Shown here piece after piece: positions 569-38,772 of a DNA stretch of 42,267 bases. Source of the DNA: a virus. Its lineage: Duplodnaviria > Heunggongvirae > Uroviricota > Caudoviricetes. The notes under the pieces are model-generated. The model was given only the letters and a program-made list of their open reading frames with translations. It made no database searches and was not told the DNA's origin. The stretch's first letter is position 1. The number at the start of each line of letters is the position of its first letter. The stretch lies in the IMG/VR virus record IMGVR_UViG_2541047698_000018; one strand, given 5' to 3'. The translations under genes were made by a program, and so were the position numbers.

Positions 569-1414
569 GTGAATAAAAATCCCTGGGATATTCCAGCATG
601 GCACGCTCTGGGCCGAGAAGCATCTTTAGTTACACAGCTCATTGGTTCTGGGGCAACAGCCATAGGTAAAGCCAATTATGCAGACAAAATAGGTGAATAT
701 TACACAGCATTTTTTGGGCTTTCTGTAGGTTTTGAGAGACTTGCTAAACTAATACTTGTTGCACACTATGCCATTGAACACAAAGGGAAAATGCCTGACG
801 AGAATATTGTAAGAAAATTTGGACATAAGCTCATTGAATTAACCAACGAGGTTGATAGTATTTCTAAAAAAATGCAACTATCTCTGAGATATTCACGTCC
901 TACACATAAAATTACCTACAAAATACTTGAATGTTTAGATTCCTTTGCTGATGCCCGACGGGGACGTTACGCAAATTTCTCCTCATTAAGCAGCCCCAAT
1001 TTAACCGATAATGAACCTATTAATAAATGGTGGGGAGAAGTAGCCGAGAGTATCCTTGAAAAACATTATTATTATACAGTTGAACAAAGACGTGTTGAAG
1101 AAAATGCTAGGTTTATCAATGCCACTCTTTCACCGTATACAACGGTCATGTATATGAATGAAAGTACCAACATTATGCAAGACCTTATATCAGCCTCCAT
1201 CCGTACTGGACAAAATACCATTGTTCAAAAGTGGGGAAGATTCTATTCTCTTAGCATCGCTCGTTGGCTTGCCACAGTATTAGCAGAACTGTCTGATATA
1301 GCTTCTCATAAATATGGAATAATTAGTTTTTATGGCCTTAGTGAACATTGTTGCAGTTATATAGTTGAAGATAGTTTTTTAAAAAACAGAAAAATATGGC
1401 CACTTCGCCAATAG
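569..1414 (+). CDS. Hypothetical AT-rich cargo protein (281 aa)
   Basis: Intact ORF, GTG start with AAGGA Shine-Dalgarno upstream; AT-rich unlike neighbouring tail genes; sits where e14 carries mcrA next to pin. Confidence 0.5.
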   Translation: MNKNPWDIPAWHALGREASLVTQLIGSGATAIGKANYADKIGEYYTAFFGLSVGFERLAKLILVAHYAIEHKGKMPDENIVRKFGHKLIELTNEVDSISKKMQLSLRYSRPTHKITYKILECLDSFADARRGRYANFSSLSSPNLTDNEPINKWWGEVAESILEKHYYYTVEQRRVEENARFINATLSPYTTVMYMNESTNIMQDLISASIRTGQNTIVQKWGRFYSLSIARWLATVLAELSDIASHKYGIISFYGLSEHCCSYIVEDSFLKNRKIWPLRQ

Positions 1415-1418
1415 TTAA

Positions 1419-1733
1419 CTAGAAAATCTTCATAAGGGGGAGAAATCCCCCACCTGTAATAACATCACTACTAAAATTAACACCTTGTTCGCACAACTCC
1501 TCCACCAGCACGACAAGATGCCGCACACTGCGCCCCAGCCGATCCAGCTTCCAGACAACCAGAGTGTCACCTGCCGATAATGTCCTGAGCAGTTTTTTCA
1601 GTCCCGGCCTTTCGGACTTTGTACCGCTTATCTTGTCTTCAAAAATCAGCTCGCATCCTGCACAGTTCAACGCATTACGTTGTAGATCGGTATTCTGGTC
1701 ATTTGTTGATACGCGTACATAGCCAATAAGCAT
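1419..1733 (-). pseudogene. pin: DNA invertase (Pin/Gin/Hin serine recombinase), 3'-truncated
   Basis: MLIGYVRVSTNDQNTDLQRN...LVVWKLDRLGRS matches Pin/Gin N-terminus including catalytic Ser motif; similarity ends near residue 88, ORF stops at about 105 aa vs about 185 aa expected; C-terminal DNA-binding domain absent. Confidence 0.75.
1436..1451. other. GC hairpin (ggggga-gaaa-tccccc) at cargo/invertase junction
   Basis: 6-bp G/C stem with GAAA loop 22 nt after the cargo stop; coincides with the point where invertase homology is lost. Confidence 0.4.
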
Positions 1734-1789
1734 GGTAGATCTCCCTGACAAAAGCAGGAATGATGCCATTTGCTCGTTATTTCTGCATT

Positions 1790-1813
1790 TTCATAAACGT
1801 TGGTTTGGGAGAA
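1790..1813. repeat. gix/hix-like inversion site (left)
   Basis: ttcataaacgttggtttgggagaa; inverted copy at 3656-3680; encodes N-V-G-L-G-E in frame in the alternate fibre cassette. Confidence 0.6.
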
Positions 1814-2152
1814 GCGGCAAAAAGGAATGTGGGGACAGGGACGAATCAGATACCTGATATGGGTAGCTTCACGCTTTCTGTTTCAGGTACTGGATATCAA
1901 AAATTACCATCTGGTTTTATTCTTCAGTGGGGCTCAATCGGCGCATCAGGCATTGCACAGGATGTGGTAACCCATTTTCCGATTGCATTTCCAAACCGAT
2001 GTCTGCGTGTTTTGGTCTCACAAGACTACACACCAGATAGCGGGGCTGTTGGTTATATTGCCTGTGCAGGTTTTAGTCCCGACCCGGTTAAATTTATATC
2101 CAGAGCCAGTACTCCTGGCCTCGGCGCTTCATTTTTAGCGTTAGGCTGTTAA
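1790..2152 (+). CDS. Alternate tail-fibre C-terminal cassette (promoterless, inside invertible segment)
   Basis: Open frame from the gix-like site; ...[24 protein letters not shown]... parallels ...[11 protein letters not shown]... in the expressed fibre. Confidence 0.6.
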
Positions 2153-2173
2153 TTTAGCTATATGGAGTGAAAA

Positions 2174-2614
2174 ATGAATTACATATATTCCGCGACTACA
2201 AACTCTTTCTATCCGCTGGAGATGAAAGAGGATTACACTCAAGCTGACTCATGGCCAGATGATGCTGTTGAAGTTGATGAGCAAGTGTATATTGAGTTTT
2301 CCGGATTACCGCCGGAAGGAAAAATCCGTATCGCTGGAGAAAATGGTTTTCCTGCATGGTCTGAAATTCCACCACCAACACATGAGGAACAGATTGCTGC
2401 AGCCGAACTGGAAAAGCAGCAACTGATTAATCAGGCCAACGATTATATGAACAGTAAACAATGGCCTGGTAAAGCGGCTATTGGTCGTCTGAAAGGTGAG
2501 GAACTGGCGCAATATAATCTGTGGCTGGATTATCTGGACGCACTGGAGCTGGTCGATACTTCCAGTGCGCCAGATATTGAATGGCCTACGCCTCCGGCAG
2601 TTCAGGCCAGATGA
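2174..2614 (+). CDS. Tail fibre assembly protein (alternate copy)
   Basis: 146 aa directly after alternate fibre cassette; C-terminal ...LDYLDALELVDTSSAPDIEWPTPP shared with the minus-strand Tfa. Confidence 0.7.
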   Translation: MNYIYSATTNSFYPLEMKEDYTQADSWPDDAVEVDEQVYIEFSGLPPEGKIRIAGENGFPAWSEIPPPTHEEQIAAAELEKQQLINQANDYMNSKQWPGKAAIGRLKGEELAQYNLWLDYLDALELVDTSSAPDIEWPTPPAVQAR

Positions 2615-3188
2615 CATCCGGCGCGGTGCTGGTATCTGTTGCCGTCACCGCGTCAATGTAATCCAGCACAGCGTTAAGCCGGGTTGTTTCTGCCTGCGTC
2701 AGTTTCCGCCCGGCCTGTAATTTCAGCTGAATCAGACTAATGGAAGCCATTGCTGCATCAATCAGTGACTGGCGCTGTGCTTCTGCCGCTTCTACTGCGG
2801 CACCGTGTTGTGCCTCAGAATCTGTCACCCATTTCTCACCATCCCATTTATCATATGGCGTTAACGGGACGATAGTGGTTGTATTTTCAGGGTAATCACC
2901 CGGAGCTGTGATTTCTTTTGCTTCTCCTGTTTCGGTGCTATAGATAATTTCACCGCGATGGTCTGGCATATATTCCCATGAGTTTAAATCTACTGAACGG
3001 CAGATTGCATAACCAGCCTTATATGTGCCAGGAGCATCTAAACAGGAATATGCCGGGATACCGACACCAACGGCAAGATATTCATTTGAAGTGGAAATAT
3101 ATTCCCGTGTTTCACCATCATAGTTATAGACGGTAATATTCCCCGCCTTCGTGGCAATAAGTTCGCTATTTAATACGGCTTTATCCAT
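2586..3188 (-). CDS. Tail fibre assembly protein
   Basis: 200 aa immediately after fibre gene; C-terminal ...LDYIDAVTATDTSTAPDVIWPELP. Confidence 0.7.
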   Translation of the reverse strand: MDKAVLNSELIATKAGNITVYNYDGETREYISTSNEYLAVGVGIPAYSCLDAPGTYKAGYAICRSVDLNSWEYMPDHRGEIIYSTETGEAKEITAPGDYPENTTTIVPLTPYDKWDGEKWVTDSEAQHGAAVEAAEAQRQSLIDAAMASISLIQLKLQAGRKLTQAETTRLNAVLDYIDAVTATDTSTAPDVIWPELPEA

Positions 3189-29829: not shown

Positions 29830-30399
29830 TTACTGGTTGTAAGGATCGTAATCCGTGATTGCCTTCCCCGGATTTTCATCTTCAGCAGGCAGTCTGGCCT
29901 CTAAAGCATTTCGGTTGAACAGATAGGAAGCCCTACAGTGCGAACAAACCATATTAACGGCTCGCCCAAGGCCTGGCTTAATAACCAGACCTTCCGCTTG
30001 CAATATAGATTTTCTCTTTTGCTCGTAGCAATTGGGACAAATATAAACCGGAGATTGGTCAGTATCTGCAGAAAGCTTGCTGCGATAGACCAGAGTACCC
30101 CGCATAGGCTGGTAAAGTTCATAGCTCGCCGCTTCAGCGGCCCAGTTCTCTTGCTTTACTTTCTCATTTTCCAGTTCAACAATTTTCTCCTTAGCCGCAA
30201 TCAGCAGCTCCTGAAGCGACATTTGCTGCATCTGAACATCCATTAGCTTATCGAGTAAGGTGTGCGTCTTCTCTTTAACTGCATAGTCGACAGTCAGATT
30301 CTGAATCTCTCTTGCTGCTCCAACCGCGCCTTTAATTGCTCCTCCCACGCCGGATAACGATTCAGTTATCCGGGAAAGAATTCCTTTTTCTTCAGACAT
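29830..30399 (-). CDS. Hypothetical coiled-coil/zinc-ribbon protein, convergent with PL
   Basis: 189 aa; central heptad-like region; C-terminal CPNC...CSHC; sits at the rex-equivalent position next to cI. Confidence 0.55.
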   Translation of the reverse strand: MSEEKGILSRITESLSGVGGAIKGAVGAAREIQNLTVDYAVKEKTHTLLDKLMDVQMQQMSLQELLIAAKEKIVELENEKVKQENWAAEAASYELYQPMRGTLVYRSKLSADTDQSPVYICPNCYEQKRKSILQAEGLVIKPGLGRAVNMVCSHCRASYLFNRNALEARLPAEDENPGKAITDYDPYNQ

Positions 30400-32991: not shown

Positions 32992-33540
32992 ATGAAACTG
33001 AAGCTGAACAATGTTCGTCTGGCCTTCCCGTCTCTGTTTGAAGCTAAAACTGTAAACGGCGAAGGCGATCCACGTTTCTCCGCAGTATTTTTAATGTCAC
33101 CCAAACACCCACAACTGGAAGAAATCCGTAAAGCTATGAAGCAGGTAGCGAAGGAAAAATGGGGAGAGAAGTGGGAGCCCATTTATAACCAGCTGGAGAA
33201 AAAACTCAATCTGTGCCTGCATGATGGTGATGAAAAAGCAGAGTATGAAGGCTTCCCCGGTAATTTCTTCCTGAATGCTGCTAACAAAGCGCGCCCAGCT
33301 GTTCTTGATCGCGATCGTTCGCCACTTATTCAGGCTGACGGACGTCCCTATGCAGGGTGCTATGTAAACGCCGTTATCGATATCTGGGCACAGGACAATA
33401 ATTTCGGTAAACGCATTAATGCCTCACTCGGCGGAGTCCAGTTCCTGCGAGACGGCGATGCATTCGCTGGCGGCGGAGTGGCAAGCGCTGACGATTTCGA
33501 CGATATCAGCGAAGGTGCTGATGCTGAAGCACTAATTTAA
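32992..33540 (+). CDS. DUF2815-like ssDNA-binding protein
   Basis: 182 aa with acidic C-terminal tail (DDFDDISEGADAEALI); sits between nuclease and polymerase. Confidence 0.6.
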   Translation: MKLKLNNVRLAFPSLFEAKTVNGEGDPRFSAVFLMSPKHPQLEEIRKAMKQVAKEKWGEKWEPIYNQLEKKLNLCLHDGDEKAEYEGFPGNFFLNAANKARPAVLDRDRSPLIQADGRPYAGCYVNAVIDIWAQDNNFGKRINASLGGVQFLRDGDAFAGGGVASADDFDDISEGADAEALI

Positions 33541-33555
33541 CCCTACTTCATAGAC

Positions 33556-33574
33556 GCCCGGTTAAACACCGGGC
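33556..33574. other. Hairpin between convergent genes
   Basis: gcccggt-taaac-accgggc perfect 7-bp stem. Confidence 0.4.
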
Positions 33575-33592
33575 TACTGATTAGGCGTATAA

Positions 33593-34222
33593 TCACTCAG
33601 GAATCTTAATCTTTCTCAATTCTTTATTTAGTTCACAGATCTTTTTCTTAGACGGGAAAGTATCATACATCCAAAAACCAACAGTCTCTAAAACTATTAT
33701 CATAACCATATACACAAGATAATTTAAAAGGCCTTCATTTTGCCCTATGGAAATAATGCAGATAATAGAAAAAAGGGTAAACAGCACAAAACACAGAAAG
33801 GAAAACAGACGACTAACAATAAATAAAAAACCTGAAAAATCAACATTAATAAAAAACACTCCGTTATCTTTCTCTATATAATTCTGAAGCTTAATCAACT
33901 GATTTATATACTGTCTTTTTTCTAATCTATTGCAAATGTAAATAACATCTCTTCGGTTATAAGAGGATTGCAATTTCAGCGCATCACGAATAATTTTATC
34001 ATTTATTCTTTTTTCTATGGCACTCTTATCCTCCTCATCCAGATAACGTTCATACTTAACTAAATATAAAATTAACTTCTTGACATATTTAGGCTCTTTA
34101 TACTTATAATTAAAAATGATCTTTCTTATCCAGACTCCCATAACAATCAAACATGAAAAAATATATCCAGCTATTTTCTCCAGATGCTCTGTATGGTCAA
34201 TCAAGTATTGGATCATATGCAT
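33593..34222 (-). CDS. AT-rich multi-pass membrane protein (moron, opposite strand)
   Basis: 209 aa; Lys/Ile/Tyr-rich; N-terminal and C-terminal hydrophobic helices; antisense to replication operon. Confidence 0.5.
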   Translation of the reverse strand: MHMIQYLIDHTEHLEKIAGYIFSCLIVMGVWIRKIIFNYKYKEPKYVKKLILYLVKYERYLDEEDKSAIEKRINDKIIRDALKLQSSYNRRDVIYICNRLEKRQYINQLIKLQNYIEKDNGVFFINVDFSGFLFIVSRLFSFLCFVLFTLFSIICIISIGQNEGLLNYLVYMVMIIVLETVGFWMYDTFPSKKKICELNKELRKIKIPE

Positions 34223-34268
34223 AATTAATCTTTTAATCAGTTAATATAATAAAAACCAAGGTAAACAC

Positions 34269-36332
34269 ATGTCCAATATACTATGGGGCGACCTGGAAAC
34301 CTATTGCGAAATCCCTATTACGAACGGTACCCATGCGTATGCCGAAGGCGTTGAAGTGATGCTTTTCGCATGGGCTATCAACGACGGGCCAGTAAACGTG
34401 TGGGATATCACTGCCGGTGGTGGTATTCCACACGGCTTATACGAAGCAATCGCAGACCCTGAAACCCTGCTTTATTTCCATAACTCTCACTTCGACCGCA
34501 CCGTTCTGCGTTATGCAATGCCGCGCCTGGCACCGCCAGTCGAACGTTGGCGCGACACAATGGTGCAGGCGCTGGCGCACGGTCTCCCGGGGTCTCTGGG
34601 GGAACTCTGCGAAGTACTAGGCGTCCCGCAAGACAAAGCGAAGGACAAAGAAGGTAAAGCGCTGATCCAGCTGTTCTGTAAGCCACGCCCGAAAAACAGC
34701 AAACTGCGCCGGGCCACCAGCAAAACCCACCCGGAAGAATGGCGGCGCTTTGTTGCTTACGCCGGACTGGATATCGAGGCAATGCGCGAAGTCTATAAAC
34801 GTCTGCCGAAGTGGAATTATCAGGGGACAGAACTGGCGCTCTGGCATCGTGATCAGCAGATCAATGACCGGGGCGTCTGCATGGACGTGGAACTCGCACG
34901 CGCTGCGATCGACGCGGTAGACCAGGAACAAAAGCGCCTGGCAAAGCGTACACAGGAAATGACTGATGGCGAAGTGCAGGCAGCCACACAACGAGACGCG
35001 TTGATTAAGCACATTGTTGAATCCTACGGTGTGGAGCTACCAGACATGCAACGCAGTACTCTGGAACGTCGTATTGCCGACCCCGATTTACCATCTGCCG
35101 TGAAAGAACTGCTGGCTATCCGCCTGCAGGCCAGTACTACCAGCACCAGTAAATACAAGGCACTGATGAAAGGCGTAAGCCACGACGGGCGCTTACGCGG
35201 TACGCTACAGTTCTGCGGGGCGTCACGTACCGGTCGTTGGGCCGGACGGCTATTCCAGCCCCAGAACCTTCCCCGCCCTTCACTAAAACAGGAACAAATA
35301 GACGAAAGCATCGAAGCACTGAAAGCCGGATGTGCAGACCTGCTGTTTGACAATATCATGGAACTAACCAGTTCAGCGTTACGTGGCTGCATTATCGCGC
35401 CAACAGGCAAAAAGCTGGTGGTAAGTGACTTGTCGAACATTGAAGGCCGTATGCTGGCATGGCTGGCGGGAGAAGAATGGAAACTGAATGCATTCAGAGA
35501 GTACGACGCCGGAACGGGTCCGGACTTATATAAACTGGCGTATGCAAAAGCTTTCGATATTGCACCAGATGATGTTGATAAACACATGCGTCAGATCGGT
35601 AAAGTCATGGAACTCGGTCTGGGTTATGGTGGTGGTGTGTCGGCCTTCATCACTTTTGCACTGGTTTACGGTCTCGATCTCGACGAGCTGGCGAACGCCG
35701 CACTACCAAACATTCCCCGCGATGTTATCCGCGAGGCGAAAAGCTGGTACGACGAATCGGTTAAACGCAAGTCAACCTACGGGCTTTCTGAACGGGTATT
35801 TATCGCCTGCGACTCACTTAAACGTCTCTGGCGCCGGGCGCATCCCGCGACCTGTGATTTCTGGTACGAACTGGAGCGCACCGTCCGCACTGCAATCGCC
35901 ACACCGCAAAAAACATTGTATTGCGGTTATCTTAAAATCCGCCGCGATGGCGCGTGGCTGCGCATACAGCTACCATCCGGACGCGCTGTATGCTACCCGT
36001 CTCCGGTTATCGAAAAAGGGAATATCACCTACATGGGGGTTAACTCTTATTCGCGTAAATGGCAACGACTCAAAACCTACGGCGGAAAGCTGGTGGAGAA
36101 CATCACCCAGGCGGCCGCCCGCGACATTCTGGCCGGAAACATGCCGCTTATCGAAGATGCCGGTTACAGCATTGTGCTGACGGTACACGACGAGGTGATC
36201 ACCGAAGCACCTGACACAGAAGATTTCAACGATAAAGCGCTTTCCGCGCTTCTCTCCACTGACCCCGAATGGGCGCCCGATATCCCACTGAACGCTGGCG
36301 GTTTTGAGGCGTACCACTACAAAAAAGATTGA
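34269..36332 (+). CDS. DNA polymerase, family A, with 3'-5' exonuclease
   Basis: 687 aa; exo motif DLETY; motif [18 protein letters not shown]; motif [17 protein letters not shown]; motif C VHDEV. Confidence 0.85.
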
Positions 36333-36396: not shown

Positions 36397-37158
36397 ATGC
36401 AGGAACTAACTGAAATGCCGATCACCTATCCATACCCGAGAGAATCTTTTCCTGACTTTTTGAGGGAGTGTGGGTTCACCAATTTTTCCCACGAACAGCG
36501 TGAGACTTGTGACTGCTATCGTTTAACGAATGGCGTAATTGTTAACCTTTACACCACCCGGACCATTCAGTTTCAAGGTAACCCTCAAGAACGTCCCAAT
36601 GTTGAAACTGCAATAATGACCCATTTAGGAACGCCGCCCACGGCAACACCACTAGCCGTAGAACAGCCATCTGAGCTCCCCAAAAAGATATTCATTGTTC
36701 ACGGCCATGACCATACTGCAAAGGAGCAACTTGAGCTAATCCTTCATAAACTTGGATTACCAGACCATTTCATTTTGCAGAATACGGGAGGGACTGGACT
36801 CACCATTATTGAAGAGCTTGAACGTGAAATTGGGCAAGGACAAACTGCTACCCGTTTCGGGATTGTTCTTTTGACACCTGATGATATGGGATACTCAAAG
36901 CGCGCCGGTGAAGCAGAAATCCAACCCCGCGCAAGACAGAACGTTGTACTCGAGATGGGTATGCTTCTTTCGTCCTTAGGGCGCAGCAATGTAGCAATCC
37001 TTCAGAAACAGCACCTAGAACAGCCTTCTGATGCTAACGGGATTTTGTATCTGAATTTCAACGACCATGTACGTGAAACAGTTCCTCGTCTAGTGCAACG
37101 GTTACAAAATTCTGGTTTCGAATTTACACAAGCTCAAATAGCTAACGCTTCCTCGTAA
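36397..37158 (+). CDS. TIR-like (COG4271/PF10137-type) nucleotide-binding domain protein with unknown N-terminal domain
   Basis: 253 aa; KKIFIVHGHD, VLLTPDD, ARQNVVLEMGMLLSSLGR resemble the TIR-like family as recalled. Confidence 0.5.
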   Translation: MQELTEMPITYPYPRESFPDFLRECGFTNFSHEQRETCDCYRLTNGVIVNLYTTRTIQFQGNPQERPNVETAIMTHLGTPPTATPLAVEQPSELPKKIFIVHGHDHTAKEQLELILHKLGLPDHFILQNTGGTGLTIIEELEREIGQGQTATRFGIVLLTPDDMGYSKRAGEAEIQPRARQNVVLEMGMLLSSLGRSNVAILQKQHLEQPSDANGILYLNFNDHVRETVPRLVQRLQNSGFEFTQAQIANASS

Positions 37159-37202: not shown

Positions 37203-37392
37203 ATTTGGGAATAAAAAACCTATGTCATTTAAATACCGGGACAGTCCGCTTTATTACCGGACTGTGCGGGAGGCTTTGCACCTTGAACAGTCCGGCGGGT
37301 ACGACCGGGCGATGCAGGTCTGGGCCAAAGCGAACGTCGGTTTGATTTTTGTCTGATGCAGAACATGCGCGAAAAGCGTAAGGAGGTGGACG

Positions 37393-37587
37393 ATGTCTAA
37401 TATCGATAATAAGGGTTGGGGGTTCCCCGCTCTGTCAAAAAAAGCACATTTCTTTAATTCGGGGGAAGCCATATCACTATGCGGAAAATGGATGTTCATA
37501 GGTATCAGGATTGATGAATGGCATGACCATCCTGAGAACTGCGCTATCTGCATGAAGAAACGCAAAAAGCAGGAAGGCGAAAGCTAA
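37393..37587 (+). CDS. Small Cys/His-rich protein
   Basis: 64 aa; C...H-x-H...C-x2-C; stop overlaps VRR-NUC start. Confidence 0.35.
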   Translation: MSNIDNKGWGFPALSKKAHFFNSGEAISLCGKWMFIGIRIDEWHDHPENCAICMKKRKKQEGES

Positions 37588-37885: not shown

Positions 37886-38146
37886 TTAGGGTTTTTTAGG
37901 GGGAGGAGCTACAGGACGAGTTTGTGACGGAGGCTGGTAACCATCACGCTTCTCTGACTCTAACGAACTTGGGCATTGCTGCATAGTTATAGGTGAACTA
38001 AAAAAGCCCATACTTCCATTATTTTGTGGTTGGTAACCATTGATAGCAAGACGTTCATTAGAAACTTTTGGTTGATACCCTTCCATAATTGCTTGATAGT
38101 TATTTACGTCCAATGCGTCATTACTCATCTTTTTATTAATAGTCAA
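37886..38146 (-). CDS. Small protein with three GYQP repeats and Pro-rich tail
   Basis: 86 aa; EGYQPK, NGYQPQ, DGYQPP; second gene of AT-rich minus-strand cassette. Confidence 0.4.
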   Translation of the reverse strand: MTINKKMSNDALDVNNYQAIMEGYQPKVSNERLAINGYQPQNNGSMGFFSSPITMQQCPSSLESEKRDGYQPPSQTRPVAPPPKKP

Positions 38147-38169: not shown

Positions 38170-38772
38170 TTAAATTGAATAAAACTCTACGGTAAGAACA
38201 TCTGTAGTCAGAACCAACACACCTAAAGTTCGTTCTTTAGGTCTATCAAACCCACCGTCATCATTGATGTGCCAACTTTCAATCAAATAAATTTGCTCAG
38301 GTTCTGGGCTGCTTGAGGCAAAGGCATTACCTGCGTACAGCCCCCCTATTTTTTTACCATCTTTTAGGGTGATAATAACCCAACAAGCAGGAGCATTCCT
38401 GAAGAAAAAATCCCATGGACGCCCCACTGGATGCGGCAATTTATTTCTAAAAAACTGCGATTCTCTTAATTTATACAGAGCTACAGGAAGCAACGATGGA
38501 GATATAAAAAACGCTAAGAAGTACATTAGATAATATAAAAACAATGAATAATCAAATAAGTTATTCCGCTCTGCGAAATAAATCGGGAAAAACCAAATAG
38601 CATAATTAATGCAGCTATAAGCAACAGCATCAATAATTATTTTGGATGACTCTTTTTTAACCGAAGGATGAAGTGCTTCGTACACTTTTATACTAATAAA
38701 TCCAGGAACCACAAAAATAATAAAAATAAATAGTTTATCAAAGCTCCAAATATCCATACTTCTCTCCACCAT
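38170..38772 (-). CDS. AT-rich membrane protein with C-terminal soluble domain
   Basis: 200 aa; about 3 hydrophobic helices in the first 110 aa; opposite strand to flanking replication genes. Confidence 0.5.
   Translation of the reverse strand: MVERSMDIWSFDKLFIFIIFVVPGFISIKVYEALHPSVKKESSKIIIDAVAYSCINYAIWFFPIYFAERNNLFDYSLFLYYLMYFLAFFISPSLLPVALYKLRESQFFRNKLPHPVGRPWDFFFRNAPACWVIITLKDGKKIGGLYAGNAFASSSPEPEQIYLIESWHINDDGGFDRPKERTLGVLVLTTDVLTVEFYSI

What the first reader, a model, noticed from the sequence alone, without database searches (positions are those of the whole stretch)
33541..34268. AT-rich 209-aa membrane protein inserted antisense between SSB-like and polymerase genes
A Lys/Ile/Tyr-rich protein with hydrophobic helices at both ends is encoded on the opposite strand within an otherwise co-directional replication operon, with a GC hairpin at its 3' side. 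The composition contrast and orientation indicate a moron; small membrane proteins in such positions are often exclusion or abortive-infection factors.
Basis: partly seen in the sequence, partly recalled or inferred. Interest (0 to 1): 0.5.

Follow-up and report, generated by a model that had tools for sequence, protein, structure and literature searches.

The report
Swappable prophage membrane-protein gene, function untested
A real, AT-rich, backwards-facing gene for a small inner-membrane protein sits in an always-occupied "cargo slot" of an E. coli prophage; it belongs to an uncharacterised family that recurs in accessory and defence slots of unrelated phages, a satellite and conjugative elements, so it is a good but unproven candidate for a factor that keeps other invading DNA out.

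Summary
Window 33593-34222 (-) encodes a 209-aa protein with 29% GC against 49% for the window. It has three predicted membrane helices and lies between the DUF2815/Enc34 ssDNA-binding gene and a family A DNA polymerase. A 7-bp GC hairpin follows its 3' end.

The moron reading is supported:
- 159 E. coli genomes carry this junction, and none has it empty.
- 67 carry this gene, and 15 carry only a 199-aa distant relative.
- The rest carry other cargo: SIR2 (PDC-S25), BRO-N/Ant, or Nmad5 plus small genes.

The hairpin belongs to the phage backbone, not the cargo, and it is not a canonical terminator here.

The protein belongs to an uncharacterised family, PHROG 10579, with about 35 clusters at 50% identity, all named members from Enterobacterales. 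It has no Pfam, NCBIfam, PADLOC or structural match. Relatives sit in other accessory slots: P2-like S-V, the P4-like hotspot beside psu, a lambdoid early-left operon (antisense), ICEs, and next to Dsr1 or an OLD-like nuclease.

It shares SieA's layout and sieB's antisense placement, but is detectably homologous to neither. An exclusion function is inferred, not shown. Interest is moderate.

The parts
33541..34268 (.). Whole variable cassette between the DUF2815 stop and the polymerase start (728 nt, 30% GC)
   Evidence: in relatives L002, L003, L004, L006 the sequence differs across this interval while the flanks match; the interval is never empty in 159 E. coli genomes.
33593..34222 (-). 209-aa ORF; family PHROG 10579; predicted three-pass inner-membrane protein
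34112..34174 (-). Codons for TM1 (aa 17-37). The N-terminus (aa 1-16) is predicted periplasmic.
   Evidence: Hydropathy. AF2 helix 11-40. Positive-inside counts across the family: median K+R is 1 in the N-terminus against 20 in the following domain.
33830..34111 (-). Codons for the basic cytoplasmic domain (aa 38-131): four helices plus a beta-hairpin. It holds the conserved positions Y57, L61, D65, K66, I73, R90, I94-I96, L112, F123.
   Evidence: AF2 model, mean pLDDT 87.9; helices 45-56, 63-82, 90-99, 103-111; strands 116-119 and 122-125. Conservation and charge.
33659..33829 (-). Codons for the TM2-TM3 hairpin (aa 132-188), with a 4-residue periplasmic loop
33596..33658 (-). Codons for the cytoplasmic C-terminal tail (aa 189-209). 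It carries the family's best conserved residues: P190 and N199 (91%) and L202 (81%).
   Evidence: The motif resembles FxRYPxEAxxFNK, the conserved cytoplasmic motif of SieA (PMC10883804), but without significant homology.
34246..34275 (-). Promoter-like site for the ORF: TGGACA, 18 nt, TATTAT (10 of 12 matches). The -35 element overlaps the polymerase start codon.
   Evidence: This is a consensus match only: 4 sites were found against 3.9 expected from shuffles, so it is not evidence on its own.
33556..33574 (.). GC hairpin GCCCGGT-TAAAC-ACCGGGC between the convergent DUF2815 gene and the ORF. It is backbone-derived.
   Evidence: Fold. Present in the L004 (BRO-N, followed by TGTTTTTG) and L006 (SIR2) cargo variants. 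No terminator call in this window.
32992..33540 (+). Left flank: DUF2815/Enc34-type ssDNA-binding protein gene (conserved backbone)
   Evidence: E 7.6e-44.
34269..36332 (+). Right flank: family A DNA polymerase gene (conserved backbone)

Best explanation
The gene is a self-contained accessory cassette of a temperate E. coli prophage. It encodes a three-pass inner-membrane protein of an uncharacterised family (PHROG 10579).

Predicted layout:
- a short N-terminus in the periplasm;
- TM1;
- a basic cytoplasmic domain of about 95 aa, made of helices plus a beta-hairpin;
- a TM2-TM3 hairpin with a loop of only about 4 residues in the periplasm;
- a conserved cytoplasmic tail.

Proposed action (inferred). 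The gene is transcribed from its own AT-rich promoter, against the direction of the replication genes. It would therefore be made in the lysogen, as sieB is in lambda and P22. There it would protect the lysogen against incoming foreign DNA by acting at the cytoplasmic face of the inner membrane. The most likely mode is interference with the DNA-translocation step of a superinfecting phage, or of a conjugative transfer for the ICE-borne relatives. This is the way P22 SieA works.

Shown here: the gene is real, it is swappable cargo, the family exists, the topology and fold are predicted with good confidence, and it recurs in accessory and defence slots.

Inferred: expression in the lysogen, any anti-phage effect, and the entry-block mechanism.
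For: Cargo status.
- The slot holds different DNA in close relatives, and the breakpoints lie at the gene ends.
- The ORF is 29% GC against 49% for the window.

A real family.
- A profile search of 1.84 billion representative proteins found 35 clusters, nearly all about 190-260 aa and colinear.
- Comparison of this gene's profile with that of the 199-aa occupant of the same slot gave 81% probability, E 1.2e-5, over 180 columns.
- 30 of 32 members match phrog_10579.
- The AF2 model has mean pLDDT 87.9.

Topology.
- Positive-inside counts put the domain and the tail in the cytoplasm.
- Conservation is highest there and lowest in the TM helices and the periplasmic loop.

Stand-alone mobile gene in accessory slots of unrelated elements.
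- Same slot, counter-oriented, in a Klebsiella aerogenes prophage and on a short metagenomic contig whose 90%-identity cluster includes a Serratia oryzae protein.
- P2-like prophage, between genes S and V, the place of the non-essential Orf30 in P2 itself.
- P4-like satellite, beside psu and next to a PDC-M36A candidate defence gene. The psu-int region is a documented defence hotspot (PMC9122126).
- Lambdoid early-left operon, counter-oriented.
- Directly beside Dsr1, and two genes from an OLD/GajA-like nuclease.
- ICE or conjugation modules.

Other defence-type cargo nearby.
- SIR2 PDC-S25 occupies the same slot in another strain.
- TIR PDC-S35 lies just after the polymerase in this window.

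Analogy.
- P22 SieA is a 3-TM inner-membrane protein whose best conserved motif is cytoplasmic and follows the last TM. It blocks DNA injection (PMC10883804).
- The lambda and P22 sieB genes lie antisense inside the early-left operon.

The gene is single-copy and chromosomal in 67 of 5426 complete E. coli genomes, and it is annotated as an intact CDS in the 30 matches that were listed.
Against: There are no functional data of any kind.

No hit to any PADLOC model, even at E<=1, nor to Pfam or NCBIfam exclusion or Abi families.

No detectable homology to:
- SieA type A (2%) or type B (3.7%);
- SieB (0.1%);
- P2 Orf30.

The structure searches were uninformative.

The slot also holds cargo that is not a defence gene: BRO-N/Ant antirepressors and Nmad5.

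The promoter-like site is no better than chance expectation.

The protein exposes almost nothing to the periplasm. That limits how it could meet an ejection conduit.

pN/pS among close alleles is 0.3-1.1 on very few substitutions. This fits either diversifying or relaxed selection.
Confidence: 0.4

Rival explanations
1. Abortive-infection membrane effector. The cytoplasmic domain senses an infection cue. The TM2-TM3 hairpins then oligomerise and depolarise or permeabilise the inner membrane, killing the cell before the invading phage completes. This would work like SieB, RexB, or the 2-TM SLATT-type effectors.
For: - Placement matches sieB: counter-oriented inside an early operon.
- It is a stand-alone TM protein near defence genes.
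- A few members give weak sub-threshold Pfam hits to 2-TM effector families DUF4231 and SLATT_fungal, and to DUF2207_C.
- The literature view is that TM proteins in defence hotspots act as suicide effectors (PMC9122126).
- Several allele differences fall in TM2.
Against: - No partner or sensor gene is conserved next to it in any context.
- The Pfam hits are all far below the curated cut-offs.
- No homology to SieB.
- The TM helices are the least conserved parts of the protein.
Confidence: 0.2
2. An accessory membrane protein whose role is not defence. Examples: lysogenic conversion of host envelope or transport physiology, or a modulator of the prophage's own cycle. In the latter case, convergent transcription across the cassette would tune polymerase expression, or the protein would affect lysis timing.
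For: - The slot directly upstream of the polymerase is never empty. It is very often filled by a counter-oriented gene of varied type: family members, an 89-aa 2-TM protein, or a 229-aa soluble protein.
- No + strand promoter-like site lies between DUF2815 and the polymerase, so polymerase transcription must cross the cassette.
- Other occupants of the slot, Ant/BRO-N, are regulators rather than defences.
Against: - The same family occurs in unrelated contexts with no polymerase nearby: the P2 tail operon, a P4 satellite, ICEs, and beside Dsr1. The protein itself is therefore the selected unit.
- Some slot variants carry only co-directional cargo: SIR2, Ant.
Confidence: 0.2
3. A replication accessory protein that anchors the phage replisome or the incoming genome to the membrane, like phi29 p16.7. 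This would fit its position between the ssDNA-binding protein and polymerase genes and its basic cytoplasmic domain.
For: - Its position inside the replication block.
- The basic domain: median 20 K+R against 11 D+E.
- Weak, non-significant profile similarity to nucleic-acid-binding proteins: ribosomal S18 at E 0.24 and the Rex N-terminus at E 0.005 for a single-protein search.
Against: - It is present in only 67 of 159 otherwise near-identical replication modules.
- It faces the opposite way, and its GC content is foreign.
- Relatives sit in tail operons, satellites and ICEs.
Confidence: 0.04
4. A chance ORF in AT-rich spacer DNA, not a gene.
For: AT-rich DNA is poor in GC-rich codons and can give long ORFs. 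No strong Shine-Dalgarno sequence is visible upstream of either ATG.
Against: - Colinear homologues exist down to 14-20% identity, with conserved motifs and the same three-helix layout.
- The family alignment gives a confident AF2 model.
- The reading frame is intact in all 30 listed E. coli matches.
Confidence: 0.01

Closest known systems
P22 SieA (superinfection exclusion A; PHROG 7745)
   Same: - A small prophage-encoded inner-membrane protein with three TM helices in the same order: TM1, cytoplasmic linker, TM hairpin, cytoplasmic tail.
- AT-rich (34% GC) and counter-oriented to the flanking operon.
- Its best conserved motif is cytoplasmic and directly follows the last TM: FxRYPxEAxxFNK in SieA (PMC10883804), against [FY]P-x8-N-x-E-L here.
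- It exists as very divergent sequence types held in one fixed slot.
   Different: - No significant sequence relationship: hhalign 2% to type A and 3.7% to type B. It falls in a different PHROG.
- The cytoplasmic domain here is about twice as long and folded.
- SieA is confined to P22-like prophages, between genes 16 and 9. This family is spread over several element types.
Lambda / P22 SieB (PF14163)
   Same: A gene of about 190 aa lying antisense inside an early operon, with its own promoter. It is expressed from the prophage and encodes a membrane-associated protein.
   Different: - No homology: Pfam has no hit and hhalign gives 0.1%.
- In SieB the hydrophobic segment lies in the N-terminal half and is followed by a soluble C-terminal domain, which is a different layout.
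Morons and defence hotspots of temperate phages and satellites (P2 S-V Orf30 slot; P4 psu-int hotspot)
   Same: - A fixed junction between conserved genes holds interchangeable, compositionally foreign cargo, including known or candidate defence genes.
- One family member sits beside psu in a P4-like satellite. Another sits in the S-V slot of a P2-like prophage (PMC9122126).
   Different: - The junction here, DUF2815 to polymerase inside a replication block, was not mentioned in the papers I read.
- It is never empty.
- The classic moron terminator is missing: the only hairpin is backbone-derived and lacks a U-run.
Entry-exclusion proteins of conjugative elements (F TraS; SXT/R391 Eex). Recalled from general knowledge, not tested here.
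   Same: Small inner-membrane proteins whose cytoplasmic parts determine the exclusion of incoming DNA transfer. Some family members lie in ICE or conjugation modules, near TraG-type genes.
   Different: No sequence comparison was made. In L013 the gene is about 2 kb from the TraG_N gene and in the opposite orientation.

Membership tests
Moron / accessory cassette in a phage variable slot | Lies between two genes that are conserved neighbours in related phages, and the intervening DNA differs between relatives | tested here: met
   159 E. coli genomes share the flanks. 67 carry this gene. The others carry the 199-aa relative, Nmad5 plus small genes, BRO-N, AntA/B or SIR2. Breakpoints lie at the gene ends.
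Moron / accessory cassette in a phage variable slot | Nucleotide composition differs from the surrounding genome | tested here: met
   29.4% GC against 49.4% for the window; the flanking 500-nt windows are 50-59% GC.
Moron / accessory cassette in a phage variable slot | Independent transcription unit with its own promoter and terminator | tested here: inconclusive
   A promoter-like site with 10 of 12 matches lies upstream on the minus strand, but such sites are as frequent in shuffled sequence. No canonical terminator was found. The 3' hairpin is backbone-derived and lacks a U-run. This needs 5' and 3' end mapping.
Moron / accessory cassette in a phage variable slot | An empty site exists in some relatives (the 'more DNA' criterion) | tested here: not met
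   No genome among the 159 has the two flanks adjacent. The shortest interval is 652 nt, in 15 genomes, and it holds the 199-aa relative. This is cassette replacement rather than simple insertion.
PHROG 10579 (unknown function) | Significant match to the family profile | tested here: met
   E 5.2e-108 over aa 28-209. 30 of the 32 relatives gathered here match the same PHROG.
SieA superinfection-exclusion family (types A-C; PHROG 7745) | Detectable sequence homology to SieA | tested here: not met
   hhalign of the family profile against P22 SieA: 2.1% probability. Against E. coli HS1 type B SieA: 3.7%. No member hits PHROG 7745.
SieA superinfection-exclusion family (types A-C; PHROG 7745) | Three-TM inner-membrane protein with a conserved cytoplasmic motif after the last TM helix | tested here: met
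   Predicted only: compared with PMC10883804. This is a resemblance in layout, not proof of membership.
SieA superinfection-exclusion family (types A-C; PHROG 7745) | Blocks DNA injection of superinfecting phage | not testable with these tools
   Needs plating, K+ efflux and DNA-entry assays.
SieB (Pfam PF14163) | Match to PF14163, or homology to lambda or P22 SieB | tested here: not met
   No Pfam hit even at E<=10. hhalign gives 0.1% for both proteins. The lambda and P22 SieB controls hit PF14163 at about 1e-29.
Known or candidate anti-phage defence proteins in PADLOC-DB v2 | Match to any PADLOC model | tested here: not met
   No families at E<=1 for this protein and none for the 199-aa relative. 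The neighbouring TIR (PDC-S35), SIR2 (PDC-S25), Dsr1 and PDC-M36A proteins do match in the same scans.
Holins, or 2-TM SLATT-type effectors | Profile match above the curated threshold | tested here: not met
   Only sub-threshold hits, driven by TM regions: holin PHROGs at E 0.35 and 0.0036 (one member each), and DUF4231/SLATT_fungal at E 0.02 (1-2 members).

The most novel reading that the evidence does not exclude
PHROG 10579 may be a previously unrecognised family of single-gene exclusion factors shared by temperate phages, a P4-like satellite and ICEs. In this reading, a membrane-tethered, basic cytoplasmic domain intercepts incoming DNA, or the cytoplasmic end of the translocation machinery. 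It would do so whether the DNA arrives by phage injection or by conjugation. The family would diversify rapidly while staying in fixed cargo slots.
Probability: 0.15. Interest if true: 0.65.

Novelty: new member of a known kind. Interest (0 to 1): 0.4.

Why it matters
If the protein does exclude phages or plasmids, it would add a compact one-gene system of about 630 nt to the known prophage-borne defences. That system is unrelated in sequence to SieA, SieB, Imm and similar proteins.

It would also mark the DUF2815-to-polymerase junction of a common group of E. coli prophages as a cargo hotspot. This junction is present in 159 of 5426 complete genomes, including O103:H2 12009, O55:H7 CB9615 and IAI1. 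The hotspot could then be mined for further systems.

Independently of function, the locus is a clean example of cassette replacement inside a replication gene block. Cargo transcription there runs head-on against an essential downstream gene.

Tried and rejected
Family libraries.
- Pfam, NCBIfam and PADLOC scans of the protein, at thresholds up to E=10 (Pfam, NCBIfam) and E=1 (PADLOC), and a Pfam scan of all 32 family members at E<=1, gave nothing above the curated cut-offs.

Structure.
- The first AF2 model, from a 12-sequence alignment, was poor (pLDDT 50). The 32-sequence alignment gave pLDDT 87.9.
- The afdb50 library was not available.

PDB sequence searches.
- Profile searches with the whole family and with the cytoplasmic domain alone found nothing significant. 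The best hit was ribosomal protein S18 at E 0.24.

Direct comparisons.
- Lambda SieB, P22 SieB, P22 SieA, HS1 type B SieA and P2 Orf30 showed no homology by hhalign.
- A local hmmsearch that also included lambda RexB likewise found no homology.

Collection scans.
- Genome contigs with the protein gave no confirmed hit, because only one genome per species is held.
- tblastn against plasmids found nothing.
- tblastn against phages found only three near-identical E. coli phages, vB_EcoM-606R2, 689R2 and 611R5.
- The third homologous-protein search, with the family profile, returned few proteins.

Literature.
- Searches for the phage names, protein accessions and PHROG id found nothing.

Rejected readings.
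- A replication role was rejected because of presence/absence among relatives.
- A chance ORF was rejected because of the family evidence.
- The hairpin as the cassette's own terminator was rejected because it is shared with other cargo variants and lacks a U-run.
Full report
1. THE OBSERVATION

The window carries an ATG-initiated ORF of 209 codons on the minus strand at 33593-34222. It fills nearly all of the 728-nt interval (33541-34268) between two plus-strand genes.
- The left gene, 32992-33540, matches PF10991 (Enc34 ssDNA-binding protein, DUF2815) at E 7.6e-44.
- The right gene, 34269-36332, matches family A DNA polymerase.

The ORF is 29.4% GC against 49.4% for the window. Its product is rich in Ile, Leu, Lys and Tyr.

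Hydropathy gives three hydrophobic segments at about aa 17-37, 130-160 and 165-187.

A 7-bp GC stem with a 5-nt loop lies at 33556-33574, between the convergent stop codons.

From about 27 kb rightwards the window is identical to a prophage of E. coli BCE049 that is integrated next to yfhL. There the ORF is annotated as a hypothetical protein. Three phages, vB_EcoM-606R2, 689R2 and 611R5, carry it at 98% protein identity.

2. IT IS CARGO, AND THE SLOT IS A HOTSPOT

159 of 5426 complete E. coli genomes contain this DUF2815 gene and, in most, this polymerase gene at 94-100% identity.
- Only 67 contain the ORF. It is always single-copy and chromosomal, and it is annotated as an intact CDS in all 30 listed matches.
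- The other genomes carry different DNA in the same interval:
  - a 199-aa counter-oriented membrane protein (L003);
  - Nmad5 plus an 89-aa counter-oriented 2-TM protein (L002);
  - Nmad5 plus a 229-aa counter-oriented soluble protein (L007);
  - BRO-N (L004);
  - BRO-N plus the 199-aa protein (L008);
  - AntA/AntB (L009);
  - a 493-aa SIR2 protein (L006) that matches the PADLOC candidate PDC-S25 at E 4e-157.

A query made only of the two flanks found no genome with an empty junction. The shortest interval is 652 nt, seen in 15 genomes, and it holds the 199-aa gene.

Similarity between variants stops at or just after the DUF2815 stop codon and resumes only at the polymerase start. This is cassette replacement at a fixed junction.

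The hairpin belongs to the backbone, not to the cassette. The BRO-N and SIR2 variants have the same stem, and in the BRO-N variant it is followed by TGTTTTTG, which makes a proper terminator for the DUF2815 transcript. In this window the cargo begins right after the stem, neither strand has a U-run, and the terminator scan found nothing.

3. THE PROTEIN BELONGS TO A REAL BUT UNCHARACTERISED FAMILY

Word-indexed searches found only near-identical E. coli proteins.

The 199-aa occupant of the same slot aligns colinearly with the 209-aa protein:
- BLASTP gives 22% identity;
- profile-profile comparison gives 81% probability, E 1.2e-5, over 180 columns.

A joint profile, searched against 1.84 billion representative proteins without a word filter, found 35 clusters at E<=1e-3. 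Apart from a few truncated sequences, they are about 190-260 aa long and colinear.

30 of 32 members match one PHROG, phrog_10579, 'unknown function'. Members with source names come only from Enterobacterales: Escherichia, Citrobacter, Klebsiella aerogenes, Enterobacter, Cronobacter, Rahnella, Rouxiella, Serratia and Xenorhabdus. All are named hypothetical.

With the 32-sequence alignment, AlphaFold2 gives a confident model with mean pLDDT 87.9:
- a long helix at 11-40;
- four short helices at 45-56, 63-82, 90-99 and 103-111;
- a beta-hairpin at 116-125;
- two long helices at 132-160 and 165-188;
- a final helix at 192-203.

Across the family, median Lys+Arg counts are:
- 1 in the N-terminal 14 residues;
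- 20 in the 97-residue middle domain, against 11 Asp+Glu;
- 0 in the 4-residue TM2-TM3 loop;
- 5 in the tail.

By the positive-inside rule (established knowledge), the N-terminus and the tiny loop lie in the periplasm, and the domain and tail lie in the cytoplasm.

Conservation is highest in the tail (P190 and N199 in 91% of members, L202 in 81%) and in the domain (R90, F123, the L-S-x-E-D-K stretch). It is lowest in the membrane helices. The selected surface is therefore cytoplasmic.

No Pfam, NCBIfam, PADLOC, PDB-sequence, BFVD or PDB-structure match is significant.

Among four close E. coli alleles, pN/pS is 0.3-1.1 on 8-20 substitutions. One genome has an in-frame 31-codon deletion in the domain. 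These numbers are too small to separate diversifying from relaxed selection.

4. WHERE RELATIVES LIVE

The relatives were located by exact-protein look-up.
- Same slot, counter-oriented. A Klebsiella aerogenes prophage carries a member with 17% identity to ours. A short metagenomic contig carries another, and its 90%-identity cluster includes a Serratia oryzae protein.
- A P2-like prophage of Rahnella carries one between tail genes S and V. In P2 itself this position holds the non-essential, counter-oriented Orf30, which is not a homologue.
- A P4-like satellite of Citrobacter carries one directly beside psu, next to a PDC-M36A candidate defence gene. The psu-int interval is an experimentally supported defence hotspot (PMC9122126).
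- A lambdoid prophage carries one counter-oriented in the distal early-left operon.
- In Cronobacter, one lies at a prophage end, two genes from an OLD/GajA-like nuclease.
- One lies directly beside a full-length Dsr1 (E=0) and umuDC-like genes, on an element with a TraG-type coupling protein.
- Two lie in ICE or conjugative contexts.
- In Xenorhabdus, one lies in a decayed mobile region with Tn3, HicA and Tad2-like genes.

No neighbour is shared between these contexts, so the unit is a single gene.

5. HOW IT MOST LIKELY WORKS

Shown: it is a stand-alone, horizontally mobile inner-membrane protein gene that occupies accessory slots.

Inferred: it is made in the lysogen. A promoter-like site, TGGACA-18-TATTAT, lies at 34275-34246 on the minus strand. 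The scan finds as many such sites in shuffled sequence, so this is only compatible with the idea, not evidence for it.

The arrangement is that of lambda and P22 sieB, which lie antisense inside the early-left operon and have their own promoter.

The protein layout is that of P22 SieA, a three-TM inner-membrane protein that blocks DNA injection. SieA's best conserved motif, FxRYPxEAxxFNK, is cytoplasmic and follows the last TM (PMC10883804). The tail here reads F-P-S-K-K-K-I-C-E-L-N-K-E-L.

I therefore favour protection of the lysogen by interference with DNA translocation at the cytoplasmic face of the inner membrane. My estimates are:
- about 0.95 that it is a real accessory membrane protein;
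- about 0.55 that it acts against incoming mobile DNA;
- about 0.3 that the mode is an entry block.

The main rival is an abortive-infection membrane effector (0.2). A role that is not defence comes next (0.2). This includes a regulatory effect of head-on transcription on the polymerase gene, which is suggested by the never-empty slot and by the absence of a plus-strand promoter-like site upstream of the polymerase. A replication-anchor role is unlikely, because most near-identical replication modules lack the gene.

6. COMPARISON WITH KNOWN FAMILIES

It works like a moron or hotspot cargo, and it resembles SieA in layout and sieB in placement.

Membership fails for each named family:
- SieA types A and B: hhalign 2% and 3.7%;
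- SieB: no PF14163 hit and hhalign 0.1%, while the lambda and P22 controls hit at about 1e-29;
- PADLOC: no model.

It is a member of PHROG 10579, which carries no functional annotation.

The strict moron definition is only partly met. Foreign composition and variable occupancy are met. The gene's own promoter and terminator are unproven. No empty site exists.

7. VERDICT

The finding is real and the moron reading is right, with two corrections: the hairpin is backbone sequence, and the event is cassette replacement rather than insertion.

The new information is that the protein belongs to a coherent, unstudied family that keeps turning up in accessory and defence slots of unrelated mobile elements.

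The function remains inferred. Such candidate families are numerous, so interest is moderate (0.4). The phage-challenge experiment that would decide the matter is simple.

Noticed in passing
window 36397-37158 (+): A TIR-domain protein lies directly after the polymerase. It matches the PADLOC candidate defence family PDC-S35 (E 7e-109) and Pfam CAP12/Pycsar TIR (E 3e-31). It is a second likely accessory or defence gene in the same block. Some relatives lack it (L007) or carry Ant there instead (L008).
   Followed up: partly
window 37886-38146 (-) and 38170-38757 (-): A second counter-oriented, low-GC (38-39%) pair lies between the VRR-NUC gene and the SNF2-type helicase. It consists of an 86-aa protein with no family match and a DUF6338 protein (E 9e-37). 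Neither has a PADLOC match. This looks like another cargo slot.
   Followed up: partly
window 29830-30399 (-): A counter-oriented 189-aa protein (phrog_1244, unknown function) with paired Cys motifs, CPNC...CSHC, that look like a zinc ribbon. It lies between the repressor-like HTH gene and the plus-strand block. Relatives L006 and L007 have no gene there.
   Followed up: no
window 37222-37400 (+): RefSeq annotates the ANR-family regulator gene as frameshifted in the identical BCE049 sequence. Relative L007 has it intact.
   Followed up: no
window 1 to about 27000: The window is identical to the E. coli BCE049 prophage only from about 27 kb rightwards. To the left, position-by-position identity falls to random level, which indicates an indel or a mosaic difference. 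RefSeq coordinates are therefore offset there; for example, the annotated CDS at 565-1410 is the window ORF at 569-1414.
   Followed up: partly
window 569-1414 (+) and 1419-3188: A low-GC (36-40%) 281-aa ORF with no Pfam or PADLOC match lies at the prophage end. It is next to what RefSeq calls a truncated recombinase and two oppositely oriented tail-fibre-assembly genes. This may be the remnant of an invertible host-range segment.
   Followed up: no
L004 1592-2107 and L005 1592-2107 (related E. coli prophages): In some relatives an HNH endonuclease gene is inserted between the DUF2800 and DUF2815 genes. It overlaps the DUF2815 start by 4 nt. This is a homing-endonuclease-like extra gene that the window lacks.
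   Followed up: no
L026 301-837 (E. coli F1022): One natural allele of the gene has an in-frame 31-codon deletion between two 'EKR' repeats. The deletion removes most of the cytoplasmic domain but keeps all three TM helices.
   Followed up: partly
L011 7811-8026 (Cronobacter sakazakii): A 71-aa ORF overlaps the start of the family gene by 26 nt on the same strand. No such ORF was seen in the other contexts.
   Followed up: no
window 33830-34111 (-), aa 38-131: The profile of the cytoplasmic domain gives weak, non-significant similarity to ribosomal protein S18 (E 0.24 and 0.74, two species). The single protein gives a weak match to the N-terminal region of the Rex repressor (NCBIfam, E 0.005, far below cut-off). 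Together with the net positive charge, this is a lead for nucleic-acid binding, nothing more.
   Followed up: partly
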